Below are positions 1,210-12,016 of a DNA stretch of 64,000 bases, piece after piece. Below the pieces are notes generated by a model that had not been told where the DNA came from, did not search any database, and saw only the letters and a program-made list of their open reading frames with translations. The first letter of the stretch is position 1. Every line of letters begins with the position of its first letter. Position numbers and translations under genes: made by a program. Source of the DNA: a virus; IMG/VR virus record IMGVR_UViG_3300045988_023748; one strand, written 5' to 3'.

Positions 1210-1955
1210 CATACGGCTGGTGAGTCCGCAACTCACTGTTATTAATTTCAACAAAACATCCATTTACTTGTTTAATTCGTAATAGATTCGTATCTTTGAG
1301 GTACGAATTTCTAATTTAGACGAATATGACAAGTAAATGGATTGACGAGAAAGCTCAGCTTGAGCATTTAATTTTGGTAGATAAGCTCAGTTATGAGGAA
1401 ATAGGAAGAAGATATGGTTGTTCAGGTACTAATATTAAAAATGTAGCGCGTAGACTTGGCATAGAGCTACCAGTTAAACGTAAAATTAATCCTAAAGAAA
1501 CATTCAATAGGAAGTACAAATACTGTTTAAACTGTGGTGCAGAACTTATTAGTTATAACGGAAGTTATGGCAAGTACTGCGGCCCTAAATGTCAATTTAA
1601 ACATGCTCATATGCTTGCTTACAAGAAGCTTTTGGACGGTGATGAAAGTATAATGAGAGCTAACTACTCTCCTAAGGCTTTCAAGAAAGATATTCTAAAG
1701 GAGCAAGGTGGAGTATGTGCTATATGTGGTATGAAGCCTATCTGGAATGGTAAAGAGCTGGTCTTTATCATTGATCATATAGACGGACATGCATCTAACA
1801 ATCGTAGAGATAATTTACGATGCATATGTCCTAACTGTGATTCACAGCTTGATACTTATAAGTCTAAGAACAAGTGTGGAGAACGTTCCTACTACCGTTA
1901 CCATAAAAATGAAATTAATAACAATAAGGATTAGGTTCGACTCCTAGTTCTTATA
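1210..1955 (+). mobile_element. ~745-nt insertion (candidate intron) in the tRNA anticodon loop carrying an HNH endonuclease gene and an internal TATCTTTG promoter box
   Basis: Lies between the two matching tRNA halves. Contains the HNH ORF 1326..1934, a TAnnTTTG -7 box at 1291-1298, and an extra T-arm-like piece at 1935-1958. Confidence 0.4.
1326..1934 (+). CDS. HNH homing endonuclease with N-terminal HTH
   Basis: HTH-like LSYEEIGRRYGCSGTNIKNVARRLGI, and an HNH/Zn motif CAICG...DHIDGHASNNRRDNLRCICPNCD. Confidence 0.7.
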   Translation: MTSKWIDEKAQLEHLILVDKLSYEEIGRRYGCSGTNIKNVARRLGIELPVKRKINPKETFNRKYKYCLNCGAELISYNGSYGKYCGPKCQFKHAHMLAYKKLLDGDESIMRANYSPKAFKKDILKEQGGVCAICGMKPIWNGKELVFIIDHIDGHASNNRRDNLRCICPNCDSQLDTYKSKNKCGERSYYRYHKNEINNNKD

Positions 1956-2018: not shown

Positions 2019-2228
2019 ATGATGCTGATTATTTATATTATCGGATGTGTAGTTGCTTTGATGGCTGTGTGTTTCTATGAATATCGTGACTATAAGAGAA
2101 ATTCTAATTACACTTACAACTTGTGTGACTTATTAATGGAATTAACTCTTGTAATAACTTCATGGATTGGTGTTATTGCAGTTATAGTATTTGTATCTCC
2201 AGGTATAGTGATGTTTAGAAAGAAGTAG
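2019..2228 (+). CDS. small membrane protein (tandem paralog 1)
   Basis: ORF track. Hydrophobic, with a SWIGVIAVIVFVS segment shared with the next ORF. Confidence 0.4.
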   Translation: MMLIIYIIGCVVALMAVCFYEYRDYKRNSNYTYNLCDLLMELTLVITSWIGVIAVIVFVSPGIVMFRKK

Positions 2229-2646: not shown

Positions 2647-3153
2647 TTGAATAATATGAGTGAAGAACTACTTGAAGTATCATGTGAACAGTATGAAAAA
2701 GAATTGGAATCGCTTAACGAGGTAAAAGAAGAGGTTGATAATTTATTATCACACCGTAAAGCTCTCAAGTCTTTAAATTGGATGTTTTATGCTAATACAG
2801 TTGTATTAATTGCTACTGTAACTCACAGTATCTTATGTTATATAAATGAAGCATTCACTACTACTACACTTATATGTGCATTAGTAGTGTTATACTGTAA
2901 TTATTCAATCCATAAGTACTATAAGAGAAACAACGATAGGATAGCCATTATTAATAAAGTTGGGGAAAGCTACAATAGATGTCTTGAACTACTAGAATAC
3001 TTGATAGCGGTATTAAACGAACTTGACGAGACTGATAACCGAGACAAGTTTGTAGAAGACGTAGGAGAAGACTTAGCACTAGCCATTCTAGAATACGAGA
3101 TGTGTAAACAAGTATTTGCAAATGCAGTGCGCGAAGGTTACGAGAATGAGTAA
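2647..3153 (+). CDS. hypothetical membrane/coiled-coil protein (168 aa)
   Basis: ORF track. A central hydrophobic stretch with acidic termini. Confidence 0.45.
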   Translation: MNNMSEELLEVSCEQYEKELESLNEVKEEVDNLLSHRKALKSLNWMFYANTVVLIATVTHSILCYINEAFTTTTLICALVVLYCNYSIHKYYKRNNDRIAIINKVGESYNRCLELLEYLIAVLNELDETDNRDKFVEDVGEDLALAILEYEMCKQVFANAVREGYENE

Positions 3154-3511: not shown

Positions 3512-3586
3512 TGGGACAGTAGCGCAGGTGGTCAGTTCGCGCTGGACTGAAAATCCAGAGATGATGGTTCGACTCCATCCTGTCCC
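3512..3586 (+). tRNA. tRNA-Phe(GAA)
   Basis: Acceptor gggacag/ctgtccc, anticodon arm ctgga-ctGAAaa-tccag, T-arm gatgg-ttcgact-ccatc. The D-arm is slightly atypical. Confidence 0.8.
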
Positions 3587-3619
3587 ACTATTTATTAACA
3601 AGATTAAATTATTAACAAG

Positions 3620-4138
3620 ATGAGTGATGTGTATTATATCATAGGTGGCGTTGCCTATGGTATCTTTATCTTGCAATTCATAATATCATGGGTTGCAGGT
3701 GAACTTGATGTTGATGTGGACTTCGATGGAGATGCCGATTTCGACATTGGTGATGTTGTTTCATTTAAAGGTCTTATTCACTTCCTGATGGGATTTGGAG
3801 GATGGACTTCTATTAAACAACTACTAGGTTATGAGATAACCTGGATTGATTGGTTAATAGGATTCTTTATAGGTCTTGTATTTGTGTTTATGCTGTATCA
3901 TTTATATAAATTCTGTATGAAATTACAGAACTTTCCAACCGACGAACCTCTTGTATACTTAGCAGGAAGACCAGCTAGAATATATGTTCGCTTAGATGAT
4001 AAACGCTATTTAGCTTTTATAAATATAAGTGGAGCATCTAGAGAAGTAGAACTCGTTTCTATTTCAGGTACTTCATATGCGGTTAATCAAGTAGTTACAA
4101 TTCGTGAGGTTATGGATAACACATTGTACATAGATTAA
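3620..4138 (+). CDS. NfeD-like membrane protein (N-terminal TM helices, C-terminal beta-barrel-like domain)
   Basis: Two or three hydrophobic segments, then an acidic linker and a soluble C-terminus. Sits immediately upstream of an SPFH gene, as in nfeD-stomatin and yuaF-floT operons. Confidence 0.5.
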   Translation: MSDVYYIIGGVAYGIFILQFIISWVAGELDVDVDFDGDADFDIGDVVSFKGLIHFLMGFGGWTSIKQLLGYEITWIDWLIGFFIGLVFVFMLYHLYKFCMKLQNFPTDEPLVYLAGRPARIYVRLDDKRYLAFINISGASREVELVSISGTSYAVNQVVTIREVMDNTLYID

Positions 4139-4149
4139 AGACTCATAAG

Positions 4150-6138
4150 ATGGAAATGACAACATTAATTATCGTAGGAGTAATTGTATTAATAGCAATT
4201 ATTACTATCATTGGGATTTTATCTCGTTATCGTAAATGTAAATCTGATGAACTATTAGTAGTTTATGGTAAAACTGGTTCTCACAAAGAGAAGGTAAATG
4301 AACTTGATGCCAAAGGGAACCAAGTTAGTAGGGAAGTAGAAATCAAAACTGCTAGAGTTTATCACGGTGGAGCTGCATTTGTATGGCCTATCATTCAGGG
4401 ATATGAAGTAATGTCAATGCGTCCTATTCAGTTGAATTTAACTCTCAAGGATGCATTATCAGCCCAGAATATTCGTGTTACTGTTCCTACTACAGTCACT
4501 GTAGCAATCAGCCAAGATCCATTAATTATGCAGAATGCTGCTAATAGATTGCTTGGCGTTGATGATACAGATAAAGAGAGTTTAATTTCAGACATTGTAT
4601 ATGGCCAAATGAGGCTTATTGTGGCTTCTATGGAAATTGAGGAACTTAATTCTAATAGAGATAAGTTCTTAACTCAAGCCAGAGACAATATTAATACTGA
4701 ATTAAACAAATTGGGTTTGTATCTGATTAATATCAATATTAGTGACATCAGAGATGCTGCTAATTATATTGAGAATTTGGGTCAGAAAGAAACTACTAAG
4801 GCTAGAGCACAGGCAGAAGCTGCTATTGCTGAAGAAGAGAAGAAAGGAGCAATTCAAATTGCCCTTACTACTAAGGAAAGGGAGACTAAAGTAGCTGAAA
4901 CTACTAGAGACCAGAAAGTAGCCATTGCTATTACTCTCAAGGATCAAGAGACTACTATTGCTGAAACTAATAAGGATAAAGCAATTAGATTAGCCGAAAC
5001 TACTAAGGAGCAGGAAGTTAAACTGTCAGAGCAGCAGAAGGAACAACGTATTGCTATTGCAGATCAACAGAAAGAGCAGGAAGTAGGAGTAGCTAAAGCT
5101 AACGCTGAGAAGCTTTCTAAGGTAGCAGAGCAGGAGTCTATTGCAATTTCTCAACAGACTGAATGGGATGCACAAGCTAAAGCTAATATGGCTAAATCTA
5201 AAGCGGAAGCAGCTGCTAAAGAACAAGAAGCTGAATCAGCTAAGCAAATTCGTATTGCTGCCGCCCAACAGAATCAGGAGGCTGAGACAATTAAAGCTGT
5301 TCAAGAGAAGGAGGCTAGGACTGCTGAATACGAGTCTGAAGCTCGTAAGAAGACAGCTGAAGCTAATAAGCAGGCTGGAGTAGCCGAGCATATGGCTACA
5401 ATTGAAGTGTCTAAGGCTAAAGGAGAAGCTGCAAAGGCTGCTGCTGATGCCGATAAGGTTGCAGGTATTTCTAAAGTGGATGCAGAAACTACTATTGCTA
5501 GAACCGAGCAAGAGAAGATTGCAGAAATTAAAGAAGCTGAAGCCAAAGCTAAAGAAGCTGAATTGAATGCAACAGTAATTGTACCCGCTAATAAGGCTAA
5601 GGAGAAAGCCATTATTGATGCTGAAGCTGTAAAGCAAGAAGCTATTCTTAAGGCAGAAGCTAAAGCTGCTGAAATTCTTAAGGAGGCAGAAGCTAAGGCA
5701 AATGCAACTCAGATGCAACTTGAAGCTGAAGCTGAAGGTACTAAGAGAAAGTTGCTTGCAGAGGCTGAAGGTAAGAGAGCATCTTTGATGGCAGAGGCAG
5801 ACAAGATTACTGCTGTTGAAATGGCTCCTGCAAAGGCAGTAGAGAAGATGATTGAATGTGGTATGACTCCACAAATGATTGTTCAATATAAGACAGTGGA
5901 TCAGCTTAAAGGCATTGCTGAAGCATCCGCAGAGATGTATGAACATATCCATCTTGGACAAGTTACTGTTTATGGTAACGAGAATACTGCTGGTAGTTTC
6001 ATGGCTAAAACAGCTGAGAATCTCAACCCAGCATTTGAACTTCTTAAGAGTATTCCTTTTAAGAAGACATTTAAAGAAATGTTTGTCGAGGATAAGAAGG
6101 ATAATCCAACCGAAGACAACTTTGAAGCTGTGAAGTAA
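4150..6138 (+). CDS. SPFH/band-7 (flotillin-like) protein with long Ala/Glu/Lys-rich coiled coil
   Basis: N-terminal TM helix, an SPFH-like core (VYHGGAAFVWPIIQGYEV...NIRVTVPTTVTVAIS), then ~350 aa of EA/KA heptad-like repeats. Confidence 0.75.
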   Translation: MEMTTLIIVGVIVLIAIITIIGILSRYRKCKSDELLVVYGKTGSHKEKVNELDAKGNQVSREVEIKTARVYHGGAAFVWPIIQGYEVMSMRPIQLNLTLKDALSAQNIRVTVPTTVTVAISQDPLIMQNAANRLLGVDDTDKESLISDIVYGQMRLIVASMEIEELNSNRDKFLTQARDNINTELNKLGLYLININISDIRDAANYIENLGQKETTKARAQAEAAIAEEEKKGAIQIALTTKERETKVAETTRDQKVAIAITLKDQETTIAETNKDKAIRLAETTKEQEVKLSEQQKEQRIAIADQQKEQEVGVAKANAEKLSKVAEQESIAISQQTEWDAQAKANMAKSKAEAAAKEQEAESAKQIRIAAAQQNQEAETIKAVQEKEARTAEYESEARKKTAEANKQAGVAEHMATIEVSKAKGEAAKAAADADKVAGISKVDAETTIARTEQEKIAEIKEAEAKAKEAELNATVIVPANKAKEKAIIDAEAVKQEAILKAEAKAAEILKEAEAKANATQMQLEAEAEGTKRKLLAEAEGKRASLMAEADKITAVEMAPAKAVEKMIECGMTPQMIVQYKTVDQLKGIAEASAEMYEHIHLGQVTVYGNENTAGSFMAKTAENLNPAFELLKSIPFKKTFKEMFVEDKKDNPTEDNFEAVK

Positions 6139-6154
6139 CAATCTTTTACAGCTT

Positions 6155-6196
6155 AAGAAGACGAACAGCATTAATAATGATACAGCAAGGTCTTCT
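6155..6196 (+). repeat. conserved hairpin element, copy 2
   Basis: aagaagac...acagca...gtcttct. Ends 6 nt before the tRNA-like 5' acceptor ggaggta at 6203. Confidence 0.55.
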
Positions 6197-6202
6197 GTAA
6201 TT

Positions 6203-6234
6203 GGAGGTATGGGTGAGTGGTCTATACCAGGGTT
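6203..6234 (+). tRNA. 5' part of a type-II tRNA-like gene (acceptor plus 3-bp D-stem with long D-loop)
   Basis: ggaggta tg ggt gagtggtctat acc a gggtt. The acceptor pairs with tgcctcc at 6805-6811 (one G-U). Its 3' end overlaps the GTG start of ORF 6217. Confidence 0.3.
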
Positions 6235-6240
6235 AAAAAT

Positions 6241-6672
6241 ATGGATACAAAAAGGTTAGGAAATATAGGTGAAGCTCTAACTCAAGCAGAGTTTGTTATG
6301 CGAGGGATTCCTTTGTATTTACCATTTGGAGAGAATGAAAAATCTGACATGATTATTGATTTAAATGGTAAATTAAAAAGAGTTCAATGTAAAACATCAG
6401 AGCAATTTATAGATAATAAAATAGTGTGGAAGTTATCAAGTAGAACAACATCAGGTTGTCATCAATACACTAAAGATGAAGTTGATTTCTTTGCACTATA
6501 TAATTTAGAATCTAAGATACACATCTTAATACCTATAGAAGATTTAAATGGAAGATATTCATTAAAAGTATCAGTTCCTTTTAAAGAATCTAAAAATCAG
6601 AGTGACCCGATTAACTGGGAAGATTATACATTTGATAAGGTATTAAAAATTCCTAAACTAGATTGTAATTAA
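6241..6672 (+). CDS. PD-(D/E)XK-fold endonuclease-like protein (Hjc/restriction-endonuclease-like)
   Basis: Motifs GNIGEA...SDMIIDL...KRVQCKTS. Probable start at ATG 6241 (the track ORF opens at GTG 6217). Lies between the two halves of a split tRNA-like gene. Confidence 0.4.
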   Translation: MDTKRLGNIGEALTQAEFVMRGIPLYLPFGENEKSDMIIDLNGKLKRVQCKTSEQFIDNKIVWKLSSRTTSGCHQYTKDEVDFFALYNLESKIHILIPIEDLNGRYSLKVSVPFKESKNQSDPINWEDYTFDKVLKIPKLDCN

Positions 6673-6758
6673 GGAGAGAGTAACCTGCAAGGAGCAGGGA
6701 TTGCCTGCTAAGCAAATCGTGCATTTCGGTGTATTGGGTTCGAAACCCAACCTCTCCG
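6673..6758 (+). tRNA. tRNA-Ser(GCU)-like (86 nt, type II), possibly degenerate
   Basis: Acceptor 6/7 bp, anticodon arm with loop cTGCTaa, T-arm ttggg-ttcgaaa-cccaa, long variable region. The D region has 4 linker nt and the variable arm pairs poorly. Confidence 0.35.
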
Positions 6759-6812
6759 CTAAGACTCCGAACCTCTAAAAGGGTTCCGCTGGTTCGAATC
6801 CAGCTGCCTCCG
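6759..6812 (+). tRNA. 3' part of split type-II tRNA-like gene (hairpin, T-arm gctgg-ttcgaat-ccagc, acceptor tgcctcc)
   Basis: Perfect T-arm and an acceptor complementary to 6203-6209. No 5' partner within 100 nt. Confidence 0.3.
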
Positions 6813-7154: not shown

Positions 7155-7228
7155 TGTCGGGTTCGTCTAATTGGATAGGACGCATGTCTCTCACACATGT
7201 AATACGGGTTCAAATCCCGTTGGGAATA
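7155..7228 (+). pseudogene. tRNA-like fragment (D-stem, anticodon arm catgt-ctCTCac-acatg, T-arm acggg-ttcaaat-cccgt) without a pairing acceptor stem
   Basis: Three arms fold, but the 3' tail tgggaat has no complementary 5' strand. The tail TTGGGAATAC recurs at 7298-7307. Confidence 0.3.
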
Positions 7229-7338
7229 CTATTAATGATTTATGCTTGTCTCATTGGCATACCAAGTTATTTGAAGAGATGGACACCTATCAATAACATT
7301 GGGAATACCTCAGCTGGCGGGAAGAGACAATACACTTA

Positions 7339-8072: not shown

Positions 8073-8993
8073 ATGGGAAGTGGTGTTTACAGTAGTATTG
8101 CTTATAGCACTTTATCTGATGATAGAGGATATGCTAAAGCATCGCGTGACCAGCTCTTTAAGAACATTTCAGTAAATGCTAGTAATACAGCAGCGTCATT
8201 TAATGTAAATGCACGTAGCTTTAATACTCAAGTTAAAGCTGAAATGGTCAATGTTGGAGTTCGTGAGTGTCGTGACTCTCAAGAACATCCATACTCTACT
8301 CCGATAATCATTGCACTAGATGTTACTGGTTCAATGATGAATACTCCTTATGAAATGATTAAGAACCATTTACCTAAGATTATGGATTCTGTCATGCAAA
8401 TGGGAGTACGTGATCCTCAATTGTTGTTTATGGCAGTTGGAGACCACGAATACGATAGATATCCTATTCAGGTTGGACAGTTTGAATCTGATACTGAGAA
8501 GATTCTAAATTCATTAGAGTCCTTAGTAATAGAAGGTGGAGGTGGTGGTAATGCAGGTGAGAGCTATTTATTAGCTCACATAGTTGCAGGATATCACACT
8601 GAAACCGATTCTTGGTTCAAAAGACACACTAAAGGATTCTTGTTTACTATTGGTGATGAACCTAATCTACAAGGAATCCCAGGTAACAGTTTGACTGAAA
8701 TTCTAGGGTATCAAAAAGGTGCTGGTTCTATTAGTGCTAATGAAGCAATTCTGAAAGCACAAGAGCAGTACCATGTATTCCACATTCACATTACTAATGC
8801 CAGTTATGGCACAAGGGTGGCTGAATCTTGGAAGAATCTACTTGGACAGAATGTACTAATGTGCAAATCTGATGAAGTGGATAAAGTAATTGCTAAAGCA
8901 ATTAAAGACAATTACGAGGAGCCTGTGTATGCAGAAACTCCTAGTGATGCTTCTAGTAGTACAACTACCGAAGACAAACAAAATTTCTATTAA
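8073..8993 (+). CDS. von Willebrand factor A (vWA) domain protein
   Basis: MIDAS-like IIIALDVTGSM (DxTGS), with later T and D positions. C-terminal Ser/Thr-rich tail. Confidence 0.6.
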   Translation: MGSGVYSSIAYSTLSDDRGYAKASRDQLFKNISVNASNTAASFNVNARSFNTQVKAEMVNVGVRECRDSQEHPYSTPIIIALDVTGSMMNTPYEMIKNHLPKIMDSVMQMGVRDPQLLFMAVGDHEYDRYPIQVGQFESDTEKILNSLESLVIEGGGGGNAGESYLLAHIVAGYHTETDSWFKRHTKGFLFTIGDEPNLQGIPGNSLTEILGYQKGAGSISANEAILKAQEQYHVFHIHITNASYGTRVAESWKNLLGQNVLMCKSDEVDKVIAKAIKDNYEEPVYAETPSDASSSTTTEDKQNFY

Positions 8994-8997
8994 AATC

Positions 8998-10044
8998 ATG
9001 ATTAGTATAGTGTTAGGCTCATTTATGGGCGATGAAGGTAAGGGACAGACGGTACATAATATATGTGCTAAGAATCCAGAGAACTCACTTGTAATAAGGT
9101 TTAGTGGTGGACATCAAGTTGGCCATACTGTTAAATACGGAGACCTTATGCACACATTTAGTAACTTTGGAAGTGGAACCTTGCTAGGAGTGCCTACATA
9201 TTGGTCTGAATACTGTACTGTAGACCCAGTAACCTCTACACTTGAAGCAATGGATTTAAAGAAATTAGGTATTACTCCTAAAATTATTTATAATCCATTA
9301 TGTCAAGTCATAGTACCATTCGACGTCTATTCCCAAGTAAGTGACGTAGTAAATCTACGTCATGGTACTGTAGGGACTGGTTTTAAAACGTGTTTAGACC
9401 GAGTGAAGTCGGGGTATAATCTTATGGTTATAGATTGCTTGAATATACATATTCTTAGGGAGAAAGTTAATGCAATAGCAGACAACTATTATCACATGAA
9501 TAGTGTATATCCATCAATTGACTTGGATAATTGGTGCAGAACTGTGAATGCATATTTCAACACTGTCCAAGTAAGTACCTTAGAAGCTATATGGGAAGAT
9601 TACGACAATCTTATCTTTGAAGGTTCCCAAGGTATATTACTAGACCAAAGATTCGGAATAATGCCCCATTGCACTCCATCTAATACAACATCACAGAATG
9701 CTCATCGAATACTAAAACAAATTGGATGTAATGACACCGTTACGGTTAATTACGTTACTAGACCATACATAACGCGTCATGGTAACGGTCCGTTTCCTTC
9801 TGATAAGCCAGTTAGATCTGTTGTAGACCCCAACAACCAATTTAACGACTTTCAGAAATCTTTCCGGGCTATAGAGTTTGATCCAGTTTTGTTTAGGCAT
9901 AGTCTCAATATTGATTCTATGTTTAGCCATAACGTTCGCAAGAAGGTTATAGTTACTCATTGGGACGAAGCTACAGACAAAGATATGTTTATAAGACCTA
10001 ACTTTGAACTGTATATTTATGAAGAGTATGTAAGGGAGTCATAG
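8998..10044 (+). CDS. short adenylosuccinate-synthetase (PurA) family protein; PurZ-like candidate
   Basis: P-loop GDEGKGQ, GGHQVGHTV (cf. PurA GGHNAGHT), GTVGTGFK. About 348 aa from ATG 8998 (the track ORF opens earlier and overlaps the vWA gene). This is shorter than bacterial PurA and closer to archaeal or viral PurZ sizes. Confidence 0.55.
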   Translation: MISIVLGSFMGDEGKGQTVHNICAKNPENSLVIRFSGGHQVGHTVKYGDLMHTFSNFGSGTLLGVPTYWSEYCTVDPVTSTLEAMDLKKLGITPKIIYNPLCQVIVPFDVYSQVSDVVNLRHGTVGTGFKTCLDRVKSGYNLMVIDCLNIHILREKVNAIADNYYHMNSVYPSIDLDNWCRTVNAYFNTVQVSTLEAIWEDYDNLIFEGSQGILLDQRFGIMPHCTPSNTTSQNAHRILKQIGCNDTVTVNYVTRPYITRHGNGPFPSDKPVRSVVDPNNQFNDFQKSFRAIEFDPVLFRHSLNIDSMFSHNVRKKVIVTHWDEATDKDMFIRPNFELYIYEEYVRES

Positions 10045-10310: not shown

Positions 10311-10577
10311 ATGAGGAAGGTAGTAGGTAGCATTGACGGCTACGATGTCATTTATGTGGAAGGCAAGAATGTAATATTCTGTAAGAATACTGCATTACCC
10401 TACCCATTGATTAAAAGTATTATTAGGGGAAGTGAATGTAGAACCACAATTGATGATAAGAATCTTACCATCACTCAAGATGGTTCAATCATTCAATTAG
10501 GTTGTTTAACTACAACCAGAGAGAATTGCGAGGCAATTATTAAGGAAGTAAATAAGATTAATAAACCTAACAAGTAA
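10311..10577 (+). CDS. hypothetical protein (88 aa)
   Basis: ORF track. Its stop overlaps the next start (TAATG). Confidence 0.4.
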   Translation: MRKVVGSIDGYDVIYVEGKNVIFCKNTALPYPLIKSIIRGSECRTTIDDKNLTITQDGSIIQLGCLTTTRENCEAIIKEVNKINKPNK

Positions 10578-12016
10578 TGGCGAAGAACATTATTCCGCAA
10601 GGAACCACCGCTGCTATAGCAGCTAGAGTTAACAAGTACGAGGAATCTCAGAAACAGAGAATCATCGAAGTGTGCCAAAGTAATATGAAGTATGCAGACG
10701 TTCTGGGCTTCATTGAAGGCGAAATCAAGCAGTCTAAGAAGATGGCATCATTCAAGTACACACTCCTATGTTGGAAACCAGATGGCGTGTATCAGCTGAA
10801 TAGAGCTATCAATGAAGTGTTTGGTTCTGCTGTTAGTAAGGAGGATAAGAGTCCTTCCGGCAACAGTAATATTGACACCGTAGATGTTATCTTAGCTGAT
10901 GGCTCTCGTACTAAAGTACCTTTTGGTAAAATCTCTTTGGAAGAACTTGGTGAGGATTCTGAAATCAATATTAACTATGACAACGACCGTCATTTACTAT
11001 TGGTTAAAGGTCAGTGCCAATTCAAGTACCAATCTCTTATTGATGATATTGTTGAAAGAACTAAAGAATTGCTCGCAACTGAATCTATCTATAAGAACCA
11101 GGCACTTGAAATTACCAATCTGAGTGAACCGAAGATTATGACTCTAGCCGGTATCGATAAGCAGTTTATGGTTCTGTCAAAGAAGACAGAATTTGAGCTG
11201 CAACCGCTTCGTTCAAGAATCTTGTACCCAGAGAAATGTATTGCAAAGGGTATTCCTTTGAAGTATGGCTGCTTACTGGAAGGTAAATATGGTACTGGTA
11301 AGACCCTACTGGCATTTAAACTGGCCAAAGATGCGGTAAACAACGGATGGTCATTCGTATATCTAAAAGACCCTTCTCTGTTGGCTGAAACTCTCCGTAT
11401 GTGTAAAGTGGTAGACCGTTCAGGTCATGGTGTTATTGTCTTTGTAGAGGATATTGACCAGGTAACTAGAGGTAACAGAGATTCTGCAATGCAGGATATT
11501 CTGAATACTTTGGATGGTGGCGATACCAAAGATATGAACGTAATCACTTTATTTACTACTAATCATATTGAGCTGATTGAACCTACCTTCTTAAGAGGTA
11601 AAAGAATTGGTTCTGTGATTACTATGGATTGTCTTGATGCTGAGACAGCTGAAAGGTTTATTCGTGAAACATTCTCCGAAGCTGAAGGTTATAGCGTAGA
11701 CGACGACTTGTCAGATGTATGTAACTACATTGCTAAGGCACAGATTGCTCCGGCATTTATGGCTGAAATTGTAGAATCTACTAAGTCTAAGCTTATCTTT
11801 ACTGAGGAGACCCATGTAACATCGTTCCATATTAAAACCAGTGTTGAATCCTATCAACGTCAAGTTGGTCTTGCTTCTAAGAAAGCTATTATCGAAACTC
11901 CTGCTGATAAATTAGCCGCTGGGTTAATAGGATTGCTCGGAGCTGATAAGATTGAAACGACGTTAAAGATGTGTGAAACTTATTTCGAATATAGTCGTAA
12001 CGACTTTAAGGATTAA
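10577..12016 (+). CDS. classic AAA ATPase (Cdc48/FtsH-type P-loop) with ~230-aa N-terminal domain
   Basis: Walker A GKYGTGKTLLAFKLA, Walker B IVFVEDID, sensor/arginine-finger-like region TNHIELIEPTFLRGKRIG. Confidence 0.6.
   Translation: MAKNIIPQGTTAAIAARVNKYEESQKQRIIEVCQSNMKYADVLGFIEGEIKQSKKMASFKYTLLCWKPDGVYQLNRAINEVFGSAVSKEDKSPSGNSNIDTVDVILADGSRTKVPFGKISLEELGEDSEININYDNDRHLLLVKGQCQFKYQSLIDDIVERTKELLATESIYKNQALEITNLSEPKIMTLAGIDKQFMVLSKKTEFELQPLRSRILYPEKCIAKGIPLKYGCLLEGKYGTGKTLLAFKLAKDAVNNGWSFVYLKDPSLLAETLRMCKVVDRSGHGVIVFVEDIDQVTRGNRDSAMQDILNTLDGGDTKDMNVITLFTTNHIELIEPTFLRGKRIGSVITMDCLDAETAERFIRETFSEAEGYSVDDDLSDVCNYIAKAQIAPAFMAEIVESTKSKLIFTEETHVTSFHIKTSVESYQRQVGLASKKAIIETPADKLAAGLIGLLGADKIETTLKMCETYFEYSRNDFKD

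What the first reader, a model, noticed from the sequence alone, without database searches (positions are those of the whole stretch)
3620..6138. Phage-encoded NfeD-like membrane protein plus SPFH/flotillin-like protein (yuaF-floT-like pair)
The 172-aa multi-TM protein with a soluble C-terminal domain sits directly upstream of a 662-aa protein. That protein has an N-terminal TM helix, an SPFH core and a ~350-aa Ala/Glu/Lys coiled coil. This copies the bacterial nfeD-stomatin and yuaF-floT operon arrangement that organises membrane microdomains. A phage carrying the full pair could remodel host membrane domains for replication, assembly or superinfection exclusion.
Basis: partly seen in the sequence, partly recalled or inferred. 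Interest (0 to 1): 0.6.

Follow-up and report, generated by a model that had tools for sequence, protein, structure and literature searches.

The report
Gut phage carries NfeD–flotillin operon
A large human-gut phage carries its own copy of the two-gene bacterial NfeD–flotillin membrane-scaffold operon, probably taken from Bacteroides-type hosts; this is a solid but unsurprising new member of a known kind, and what it does for the phage is untested.

Summary
ORF1 (3620-4138, 172 aa) and ORF2 (4150-6138, 662 aa) lie 11 nt apart on the + strand of a large phage's replication region.

ORF2 is a genuine SPFH/flotillin protein: Pfam Band_7 scores 95.9 bits, and its best sequence and fold matches are flotillin complexes, with no tail-fibre fold.

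ORF1 hits no profile library directly, but several lines show it is a divergent short NfeD (NfeD2/YuaF type):
- It has three N-terminal helices and a five-stranded C-terminal domain.
- The top Foldseek hit is YbbJ from the QmcA-YbbJ complex.
- Its profile matches the upstream partner in 78 of 79 Bacteroidota flotillin loci that have one (hhalign 99.9%), and 26 of 70 partners touch Pfam NfeD.

The pair is conserved in 27 of 27 related viral contigs and in gut phage csAssE-Sib. It is under strong purifying selection (31 synonymous, 0 nonsynonymous differences), yet three independent microhomology deletions have removed it, so it is accessory. The phage flotillin has about 150 extra residues of 11-residue-repeat helix.

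The likely function is a flotillin scaffold stabilised by NfeD on the host membrane. Its purpose during infection is inferred, not shown. I rate it a new member of a known kind, of moderate interest.

The parts
3620..4138 (+). ORF1, 172 aa: a divergent short NfeD-like (NfeD2/YuaF-type) membrane protein and the first gene of the pair
3629..3697 (+). ORF1 transmembrane helix 1 (residues 4-26)
   Evidence: Hydropathy analysis and model helix 4-26.
3698..3763 (+). ORF1 acidic loop (residues 27-48, net charge -9) with the nearly invariant D-x-D-x-D-x-D-G-D-x-D motif, followed by invariant S-F-K-G
   Evidence: Conservation in alignment A1, charge count, and the same motif in bacterial partners.
3764..3925 (+). 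ORF1 helix 2 (residues 49-68, weakly hydrophobic) and transmembrane helix 3 (residues 75-102)
   Evidence: Model helices 49-68 and 75-102 and hydropathy analysis.
3971..4132 (+). ORF1 C-terminal five-stranded OB-like beta domain (residues 118-171), the presumed flotillin-binding domain
4139..4149 (+). 11-nt spacer between the two genes, an operon-like junction
   Evidence: Read directly from the sequence. The same tight spacing is seen in 27 of 27 viral loci.
4150..6138 (+). ORF2, 662 aa: a flotillin-type SPFH (SPFH2) protein and the second gene of the pair
   Evidence: Pfam Band_7 scores 95.9 bits. The only NCBIfam hit is the FloT model. The best PDB sequence and fold hits are flotillin-1/2 complexes. 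It is 40% identical to a bacterial 511-aa flotillin.
4156..4233 (+). ORF2 N-terminal membrane anchor (residues 3-28), followed by the basic stretch RYRKCK
   Evidence: Peak Kyte-Doolittle hydropathy of 3.4 and model helix 3-28.
4348..4842 (+). ORF2 SPFH/Band 7 domain (residues 67-231)
   Evidence: Pfam PF01145, E 3.7e-27. pLDDT is 70-85 in the model.
4843..5856 (+). ORF2 Ala/Glu/Lys-rich helical region (residues 232-569) with 11-residue repeats; about 150 aa longer than in bacterial flotillins
   Evidence: Composition and periodicity, model helices 206-404, 412-474 and 482-569, and the insertions relative to bacterial proteins in alignment A5.
5857..6135 (+). ORF2 C-terminal domain (residues 570-662), conserved with bacterial flotillins (including the GQVTVYG motif)
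   Evidence: The second BLASTP segment covers it, and A4 and A5 show invariant columns here.

Best explanation
This is a phage-borne copy of the bacterial nfeD-flotillin (NfeD2-SPFH2, yuaF-floT type) operon, of Bacteroidota ancestry.

Shown here:
- ORF2 is an SPFH/flotillin protein with an N-terminal membrane anchor.
- ORF1 is a divergent short NfeD with three N-terminal helices and an OB-like C-terminal domain.
- Both genes are homologous to the two genes of the Bacteroidota operon, in the same order.
- The pair is conserved and under purifying selection in a clade of large human-gut phages, and it is dispensable.

Inferred from studied bacterial systems (S. aureus FloA-NfeD, PMC11222466; SPFH cages, PMC12478178 and PMC12624060):
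- The two proteins are made together and insert into the host cytoplasmic membrane.
- The flotillin oligomerises through its long hendecad-repeat helical region into a scaffold or cage on the cytoplasmic face.
- The OB-like domain of the NfeD partner binds that helical region and stabilises the oligomer.

Most likely purpose (inference only): the complex acts as an ATP-independent membrane-protein stabiliser and microdomain organiser that keeps the host membrane working during a long infection by a large phage. It would be a membrane-maintenance auxiliary gene pair, not a virion or lysis component.
For: ORF2 identity:
- Band_7 scores 95.9 bits against a cut-off of 23.6.
- FloT is the only NCBIfam model hit.
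- Flotillin-1/2 are the best PDB sequence hits, and the top five Foldseek hits are flotillin structures.

ORF1 identity:
- The AF2 model has 3 helices and 5 strands.
- The top Foldseek hit is YbbJ of the QmcA-YbbJ complex, followed by YuaF, 1510-C and 2exd among the top six.
- The top PDB sequence hit of the family profile is the YuaF OB domain.
- NfeD is the only Pfam family hit repeatedly in the family: 6 of 64 relatives and 26 of 70 bacterial partners.

Operon homology:
- 79 of 80 Bacteroidota flotillin loci have an upstream same-strand ORF, and the phage-only profile hits 78 of these.
- hhalign between the phage family and the bacterial partner family gives 99.9%, E 7e-35.
- ORF2 is 40% identical to a bacterial flotillin.
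- The best cellular hits are Bacteroides genomes.

Conservation and selection:
- 27 of 27 IMG/VR loci keep the pair, as do csAssE-Sib and further metagenomic contigs.
- Differences from close relatives are 31 synonymous and 0 nonsynonymous in one case, and 51.5 against 5.5 in another.

Background on mechanism comes from PMC11222466, PMC2636767, PMC12478178 and PMC12624060.
Against: - ORF1 itself does not reach any Pfam, NCBIfam or PHROG model. Even its relatives stay just under the NfeD gathering score (27.2 against 29.1 bits).
- ORF2 is far below the FloT equivalog cut-off (122.8 against 700 bits).
- The full-length ORF2 model has low confidence (pLDDT 56), so the shape of the assembly is not predicted.
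- No experiment or complex prediction shows that the two proteins bind each other.
- Three independent natural deletions show the pair is not needed for propagation, so any benefit is conditional.
- The membrane topology of ORF1, in particular which side the acidic loop faces, is unresolved.
- The host is inferred only from gene phylogeny.
Confidence: 0.75

Rival explanations
1. The molecular identity is the same (an NfeD-flotillin complex), but the purpose is superinfection exclusion or interference with host membrane-based defence or proteolysis. The phage scaffold would sequester inner-membrane proteins that other phages need for DNA entry, or it would modulate a membrane protease such as FtsH, as HflK/C and QmcA do in E. 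coli.
For: The pair lies in the early/replication region among accessory genes. It is dispensable and has been lost repeatedly, which is typical of conditionally useful competition genes. SPFH cages are known to enclose FtsH (PDB 7wi3 and 7vhq appear among the fold hits), and QmcA/YbbK interacts with FtsH (PMC2636767).
Against: There is no hit to any known defence or anti-defence model (PADLOC). Flotillin-type (SPFH2) proteins have not been linked to FtsH in the papers read here. Purifying selection is very strong and the sequence is slow-evolving, unlike typical arms-race genes.
Confidence: 0.15
2. The pair is a passenger: a host operon picked up by the phage and carried along without any function for the phage.
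For: Both genes are of clear bacterial (Bacteroidota) ancestry. Natural variants lacking them exist.
Against: The pair is kept in the same position in 27 of 27 related viral contigs, which span 57-100% protein identity. The window's clade is monophyletic in 100 of 100 bootstraps, which implies long vertical inheritance. dN/dS is about 0.03. The phage version has evolved its own extension of about 150 aa.
Confidence: 0.07
3. ORF1 is a holin-like lysis protein and ORF2 is a structural coiled-coil (fibre) protein, so the resemblance to nfeD-floT is superficial.
For: ORF1 is small and has several transmembrane helices. Two distant relatives give weak holin-family hits (E 0.02-0.03). ORF2 is dominated by a long helical region.
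Against: ORF2 has a significant SPFH domain, and only SPFH proteins and vault proteins appear in the fold search. ORF1 has an NfeD-type OB domain, and its family is the standard partner of chromosomal flotillins in bacteria. No lysis or structural genes are nearby.
Confidence: 0.02

Closest known systems
Bacteroidota chromosomal nfeD-flotillin operon, for example Bacteroides faecichinchillae JCM 17102 (locus L044: 165-aa partner plus 548-aa flotillin)
   Same: The gene order, strand and tight spacing are the same. The partner protein has the same TM1, acidic D-x-D loop, S-F-K-G..H-F motif, TM3 and beta domain. The phage-only profile hits the partner at E 4.7e-49. The flotillin is 43% identical in its best segment and 52% identical over conserved columns.
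   Different: The phage flotillin is more than 110 aa longer than the Bacteroides one and about 150 aa longer than typical Bacteroidota ones, because of extra hendecad repeats. It also has an insert of about 20 aa after the VVYGKTG motif. It is encoded in a phage replication region, not a chromosome.
Bacillus subtilis yuaF-floT (yuaG), the NfeD2-SPFH2 operon of Hinderhofer et al. 2009 (PMC2636767)
   Different: Sequence similarity is very low. ORF2 scores 122.8 bits against the 700-bit FloT equivalog cut-off, so it is not a FloT orthologue. There is no yuaI-like third gene. Whether YuaF has the acidic loop of ORF1 was not examined.
E. coli QmcA-YbbJ SPFH-NfeD complex (PDB 8z5g)
   Different: QmcA is a stomatin-type (SPFH1) protein of about 300 aa that forms a 26-mer (PMC12478178). 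ORF2 is flotillin-type and more than twice as long.
S. aureus FloA-NfeD (PMC11222466)
   Same: NfeD is the first gene and flotillin the second. A cytosolic OB-like domain binds the flotillin coiled-coil region and stabilises its oligomers. This is the functional model used here.
   Different: FloA is a short flotillin (about 37 kDa) and that NfeD is about 26 kDa. No direct sequence comparison was made here.
Annotated phage flotillin/SPFH genes: gut phage csAssE-Sib (OR575929), Vibrio phage KIT04, SPFH ORFs of T4-like phages (PMC1524935), PHROG 200
   Same: csAssE-Sib has the same pair: a 164-aa 'transmembrane protein' followed by a 566-aa 'flotillin family protein'. Its upstream protein belongs to the ORF1 family (hhalign 99.9%). 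ORF2 hits PHROG 200 weakly.
   Different: The csAssE-Sib flotillin groups with Bacteroides (98 of 100 bootstraps, 72% identity), so it looks like a separate and more recent exchange. KIT04 has only an 82-aa ORF upstream, which was not tested. No record or paper found here identifies the NfeD partner in a phage.

Membership tests
SPFH / Band 7 superfamily (Pfam PF01145) | The SPFH domain scores above the Pfam gathering threshold | tested here: met
   95.9 bits against a cut-off of 23.6, residues 67-231.
SPFH / Band 7 superfamily (Pfam PF01145) | SPFH alpha/beta fold | tested here: met
   Tested on a predicted model only. The SPFH core has pLDDT 70-85. All 46 Foldseek hits with E <= 0.001 are SPFH proteins or major vault proteins; 1win gives TMt 0.77.
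Prokaryotic flotillin (SPFH2: FloT/YuaG, YqiK type) | An N-terminal membrane anchor, then the SPFH domain, then a long Ala/Glu-rich helical region, then a C-terminal domain | tested here: met
   Hydropathy and composition, model helices, and end-to-end alignment with bacterial flotillins.
Prokaryotic flotillin (SPFH2: FloT/YuaG, YqiK type) | Closest SPFH subfamily by sequence and fold is flotillin | tested here: met
   The only NCBIfam hit is FloT. Flotillin-2 and flotillin-1 are the best PDB sequence hits and the top five fold hits are flotillin structures.
Prokaryotic flotillin (SPFH2: FloT/YuaG, YqiK type) | Second gene of an operon whose first gene is an NfeD2-type membrane protein (PMC2636767, PMC11222466) | tested here: met
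   ORF1 lies 11 nt upstream on the same strand, and it belongs to the partner family found in 78 of 80 bacterial loci.
FloT equivalog (NCBIfam NF058507) | Score at or above the curated equivalog cut-off of 700 bits | tested here: not met
   122.8 bits. Cellular Bacteroidota-type flotillins also fail, at 191.7 and 198.2 bits. ORF2 is therefore a flotillin-family protein but not a FloT orthologue.
Prokaryotic flotillin (SPFH2: FloT/YuaG, YqiK type) | Forms large membrane-bound oligomers or foci | not testable with these tools
   This needs BN-PAGE, microscopy or cryo-EM. The monomer model is of low confidence.
NfeD (Pfam PF01957, NfeD-like C-terminal partner-binding domain) | Pfam NfeD domain at the gathering threshold (29.1 bits) | tested here: not met
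   ORF1 gives no NfeD hit, even at E <= 10. The best relative scores 27.2 bits, E 4.4e-6. 26 of 70 bacterial partners hit at E <= 0.01, best 2.8e-7. Membership at the sequence-model level is therefore only transitive.
NfeD (short form, NfeD2/YuaF type; PMC2636767) | [quoted passage not shown] | tested here: met
   172 aa, with helices at 4-26, 49-68 and 75-102 and strands at 118-171.
NfeD (short form, NfeD2/YuaF type; PMC2636767) | A C-terminal OB-like beta-barrel superposable on solved NfeD domains | tested here: met
NfeD (short form, NfeD2/YuaF type; PMC2636767) | Physically binds its SPFH partner | not testable with these tools
   No complex prediction or experiment was available.
NfeD long form (NfeD1b, with an N-terminal ClpP-type protease domain) | ClpP-like serine protease domain | tested here: not met
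   There is no protease domain hit, and the protein is only 172 aa.
Known anti-phage defence systems (PADLOC-DB) | A match to any defence-protein model | tested here: not met
   No hits for either protein.

The most novel reading that the evidence does not exclude
The phage has reshaped the host-type flotillin into an unusually large scaffold: about 150 extra residues of hendecad helix, in a family where subunit number tracks helix length. Together with its NfeD partner, this scaffold would build a phage-specific membrane compartment, for example a platform that anchors replication or assembly, or one that excludes competing phages. Under this reading it does not simply duplicate host membrane maintenance.
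Probability: 0.15. Interest if true: 0.7.

Novelty: new member of a known kind. Interest (0 to 1): 0.4.

Why it matters
Flotillin-NfeD operons are nearly universal in bacteria, but their physiological role is still debated. A phage that keeps its own copy under strong purifying selection points to a moment in infection when this membrane scaffold matters.

Natural deletion variants of the same phage already exist, which gives a ready-made comparison for testing what the pair contributes.

The result also shows a gap in annotation. No standard profile library detects the NfeD-like partner of Bacteroidota-type flotillins, a family of at least 1,400 clusters at 50% identity. It is therefore labelled hypothetical or 'transmembrane protein' in both bacterial and phage records.

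Finally, the gene phylogeny gives a host clue (Bacteroides or other Bacteroidales) for an abundant clade of uncultured gut phages whose contigs reach about 170-186 kb.

Tried and rejected
- Direct searches with ORF1 against Pfam, PHROGs, NCBIfam and PDB sequences found nothing. A 20-sequence phage-only profile found only chance-level transmembrane matches in the PDB and in Pfam. The link to NfeD appeared only after broadening the family and using structure.
- A megablast search of the region against deposited phages found only a 59-nt match.
- A single-protein scan of 185,579 species genomes found no relative. An alignment-based scan was needed.
- PADLOC gave no defence-system hit.
- The promoter and terminator scan was uninformative: 14 promoter-like sites against 11.2 expected, and no + strand terminator-like site at the ends of the pair. 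These consensus patterns may not apply to this host.
- The first tree script timed out.
- The afdb50 library was unavailable.
- The QmcA-YbbJ structure paper is not held, so the placement of NfeD inside the cage could not be quoted.
- The Perkons paper concerns a phage integrating into host floA, not a phage-encoded flotillin.
- The holin/tail-fibre reading was considered and rejected.
- A chimeric or contaminated assembly was rejected because the same context recurs in 27 independent viral contigs.
Full report
**Observation.** The window is about 36% G+C, with a steadily positive GC skew and essentially all long ORFs on the + strand. It carries 12 tRNA genes in its first 22 kb. It encodes a DNA polymerase, Dda-like and DnaB-like helicases, DNA and RNA ligases, an exonuclease and HNH/homing endonucleases. 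No deposited phage is closely related at the DNA level. The same region does recur in 31 IMG/VR viral contigs, and close protein homologues sit on human-gut metagenomic contigs, many of about 170-186 kb. The window is therefore the replication and accessory-gene region of a large uncultured gut phage.

**ORF2 is a flotillin-type SPFH protein.**
- Pfam Band_7/SPFH matches residues 67-231 at 95.9 bits, against a cut-off of 23.6.
- The only NCBIfam model hit is the FloT model, at 122.8 bits. That is far below its 700-bit equivalog cut-off, but cellular Bacteroidota-type flotillins also score only about 190-200 bits.
- The best PDB sequence matches are human flotillin-2 and flotillin-1 from the cage structures 9l3g and 9bq2.
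- The AF2 monomer model has low overall confidence (pLDDT 56), with a well-formed SPFH core (pLDDT 70-85) followed by helices 206-404, 412-474 and 482-569. Its Foldseek hits are flotillin (the top five), then prohibitin, stomatin, HflK/C, QmcA and vault proteins.
- The N-terminus is strongly hydrophobic and is followed by the basic stretch RYRKCK. By the positive-inside rule (my inference), the bulk of the protein would be cytoplasmic.
- The helical region is 23% Ala, 16% Glu and 14% Lys. Its periodicity is 11 residues, not 7, with visible repeats of the K-E-x-E-x-x-I-A-E-T-x kind.

**ORF1 is a divergent short NfeD.** No library recognises it directly. Its family conserves:
- three helices;
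- a nearly invariant acidic D-x-D-x-D-x-D-G-D-x-D loop with net charge -9;
- an invariant S-F-K-G..H-F motif;
- a beta-rich C-terminal domain of about 55-65 aa.

The AF2 model (pLDDT 77, and 81-88 in the C-terminal domain) has helices at 4-26, 49-68 and 75-102 and five strands at 118-171. [quoted passage not shown]

Two structure-comparison methods agree:
- Foldseek ranks E. coli YbbJ from the QmcA-YbbJ complex first (E 6.4e-4, 138 columns), YuaF second, 1510-C fourth and 2exd sixth.

At the sequence level the family is large, with 1,404 clusters at 50% identity reaching E <= 0.001. A 64-sequence profile has the YuaF OB domain as its best PDB hit (E 0.012, whole domain). NfeD is the only Pfam family hit by more than one member, in 6 of 64, with the best score at 27.2 bits against the 29.1-bit cut-off.

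**The pair is homologous, gene for gene, to a bacterial operon.**
- A distant ORF1 relative (P0300) lies in a bacterial genome next to asd and ligA, directly upstream of a 511-aa Band_7 protein.
- ORF2 is 40% identical to that flotillin over 366 aa, and the C-terminal domains also align.
- An alignment-based scan of species genomes returned at least 593 relatives. The best 80 are almost all Bacteroidota, and Bacteroides/Bacteroidaceae lead by a wide margin (E 3e-137 to 3e-120, against about 1e-83 for most of the other loci).
- In 79 of those 80 loci an ORF of median 188 aa lies immediately upstream on the same strand. The phage-only ORF1 profile hits 78 of them, 76 at E <= 1e-10.
- Profile-profile comparison of the phage family with 70 bacterial partners gives 99.9% probability, E 7e-35, over the full length.
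- 26 of the 70 bacterial partners hit Pfam NfeD at E <= 0.01.
- The Bacteroides faecichinchillae locus has a 165-aa partner with the same motifs and a 548-aa flotillin, in ordinary chromosomal surroundings.

This is the NfeD2-SPFH2 (yuaF-floT type) operon, which is reported to be transferred laterally as a unit (PMC2636767).

**Distribution and evolution in phages.**
- All 27 IMG/VR loci with a full-length flotillin match have an ORF1 homologue ending 12-17 nt upstream.
- Further metagenomic contigs show the same pairing: 175 aa with 657 aa, and 171 aa with 647 aa.
- The deposited gut phage csAssE-Sib has a 164-aa 'transmembrane protein' followed by a 566-aa 'flotillin family protein', and that upstream protein is in the ORF1 family.
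- In a neighbour-joining tree of 36 sequences over 490 columns, the window's clade is monophyletic (100 of 100 bootstraps). csAssE-Sib groups with Bacteroides (98 of 100) at 72% identity. The union of phage and Bacteroides sequences has only 50 of 100 support. This suggests at least two exchanges between Bacteroides-type hosts and phages, but the direction of transfer is not resolved.
- Compared with bacterial flotillins, the window's clade has an insert of about 20 aa after VVYGKTG and about 150 extra helical residues.
- Selection is strongly purifying. ORF2 differs from near-identical relatives by 31 synonymous and 0 nonsynonymous changes, by 51.5 and 5.5, and by 17 and 1. ORF1 differs by 8 and 2.

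**The pair is dispensable.** Four contigs of the same phage species (about 87-99% nucleotide identity in the aligned flanks) lack ORF1 and the SPFH half of ORF2, through three different deletions: window 3700 to 5456, 3523 to 5685, and 3755 to 5442. The junctions lie at short microhomologies, for example GGTTGCAGGT. One junction is identical in two metagenomes. One remnant carries a TGG-to-TAG stop, and another is an in-frame fusion (the reading frames were read from the printed junctions). Microhomologies of 10 nt or less are far shorter than assembler k-mers, so I take these to be real variants. This step is inference.

**Mechanism.** What is shown is the identity, architecture, homology, conservation and dispensability of the pair. 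The rest is inferred from studied systems:
- In S. aureus, NfeD is the first gene and flotillin the second. The cytosolic OB-like domain of NfeD binds the flotillin coiled-coil region and stabilises its oligomers. The complex stabilises unfolded membrane proteins without ATP, which matters in stressed or ATP-depleted cells (PMC11222466).
- SPFH proteins in general form closed cages that confine a patch of membrane: QmcA as a 26-mer and flotillin as a 44-mer (PMC12478178). Subunit number correlates with the length of the first helix (PMC12624060).

I therefore propose that the phage proteins are made together, insert into the host inner membrane and form an NfeD-stabilised flotillin scaffold on the cytoplasmic face, possibly larger than the host's own. 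I also propose that this scaffold maintains membrane-protein integrity and organisation during infection. Superinfection exclusion or protease modulation is the main functional rival. A functionless passenger is unlikely given the selection data.

**Comparison with known work, and novelty.** SPFH genes in phages have been listed since 2006 (PMC1524935). 'Flotillin family protein' is already an automated annotation in a few phage records and in JGI names. The searchable literature held no paper describing a phage-encoded flotillin or a phage NfeD-flotillin pair, and csAssE-Sib has no paper in the library. The NfeD-like half is invisible to Pfam, NCBIfam and PHROGs. The finding is therefore a new member of a known kind: correct, well supported and moderately interesting, with its function in infection still open.

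Noticed in passing
window 8890-10044 (+); the true start is probably the ATG near 8996: The ORF matches phrog_1211, described as '2-aminooxy adenylosuccinate synthetase' (PurZ/PurA-like), at E 1.2e-43. It is flanked by a VWA-like protein (8073-8993, phrog_2971) and an AAA ATPase (10577-12016). If it is PurZ and not PurA, the phage might use 2-aminoadenine in its DNA.
   Followed up: no
L032, L034, L035, L036 compared with window 3523-5785: There are three independent microhomology-mediated deletions of the NfeD-flotillin pair in near-identical phages. The L035/L036 junction is identical in two metagenomes and gives an in-frame fusion of ORF1 residues 1-46 to the C-terminal third of ORF2. The L032 remnant carries a premature stop.
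   Followed up: yes
window 1326-1934 (+): This HNH endonuclease gene is missing from close relatives L006, L032 and L035, which lack window positions from about 1200-1250 to 1890-1956. It is present in L034. That pattern is what a mobile homing endonuclease would show.
   Followed up: partly
window 6217-6672 (+) and 6518-6773: A PD-(D/E)XK endonuclease (PF11645, phrog_5018; weak PADLOC homing-endonuclease hit) lies just downstream of the flotillin gene. Its 3' part and the DNA just downstream (window 6518-6773) do not align between relatives. In more distant phages a PDDEXK_5 gene sits several kb upstream of the flotillin gene, not downstream. It is probably another mobile element.
   Followed up: partly
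window 2019-2228, 2230-2457 and 2647-3153 (+): Two adjacent small paralogous proteins (69 and 75 aa), each with two hydrophobic segments, and a 168-aa protein with a central hydrophobic segment lie just upstream of the pair, interleaved with tRNA genes. This may form a cluster of membrane proteins together with the NfeD-flotillin pair.
   Followed up: no
window 1-22250: Twelve tRNA genes (Ala, His, Phe, Asp, Thr, Gln, Met x2, Leu x2, Arg x2) are scattered among small ORFs. tRNA-Phe ends 31 nt before ORF1, and the L034 deletion cuts into it.
   Followed up: no
window 5236-6171 (-): A 311-aa antisense ORF lies entirely within ORF2. Its translation is of low complexity (rich in Leu, Ser, Phe and Cys), and it is most likely a by-product of the repetitive GAA/GCA/AAG-rich sense strand.
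   Followed up: no
L037 (phage csAssE-Sib, OR575929, record 120146-122373): The csAssE-Sib flotillin is 72% identical to Bacteroides chromosomal flotillins and groups with them (98 of 100 bootstraps), apart from the window's clade. This suggests an independent and more recent host-phage exchange of the same operon. An acyl carrier protein gene lies immediately upstream of the pair there.
   Followed up: partly
window 7220-7248 compared with L006, L032, L034, L035: Relatives carry about 1.2-1.4 kb of extra DNA between window positions of roughly 7201-7220 and 7201-7248. This is an indel next to the tRNA-Asp/Thr genes, and its content was not examined.
   Followed up: no
L098 (MAG labelled Citrobacter freundii, QFQQ01000033.1): A flotillin locus of Bacteroidota type, which clusters with Longitalea in the tree, sits in a bin labelled Citrobacter freundii. 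This is probably a binning error and not a real enterobacterial gene.
   Followed up: no
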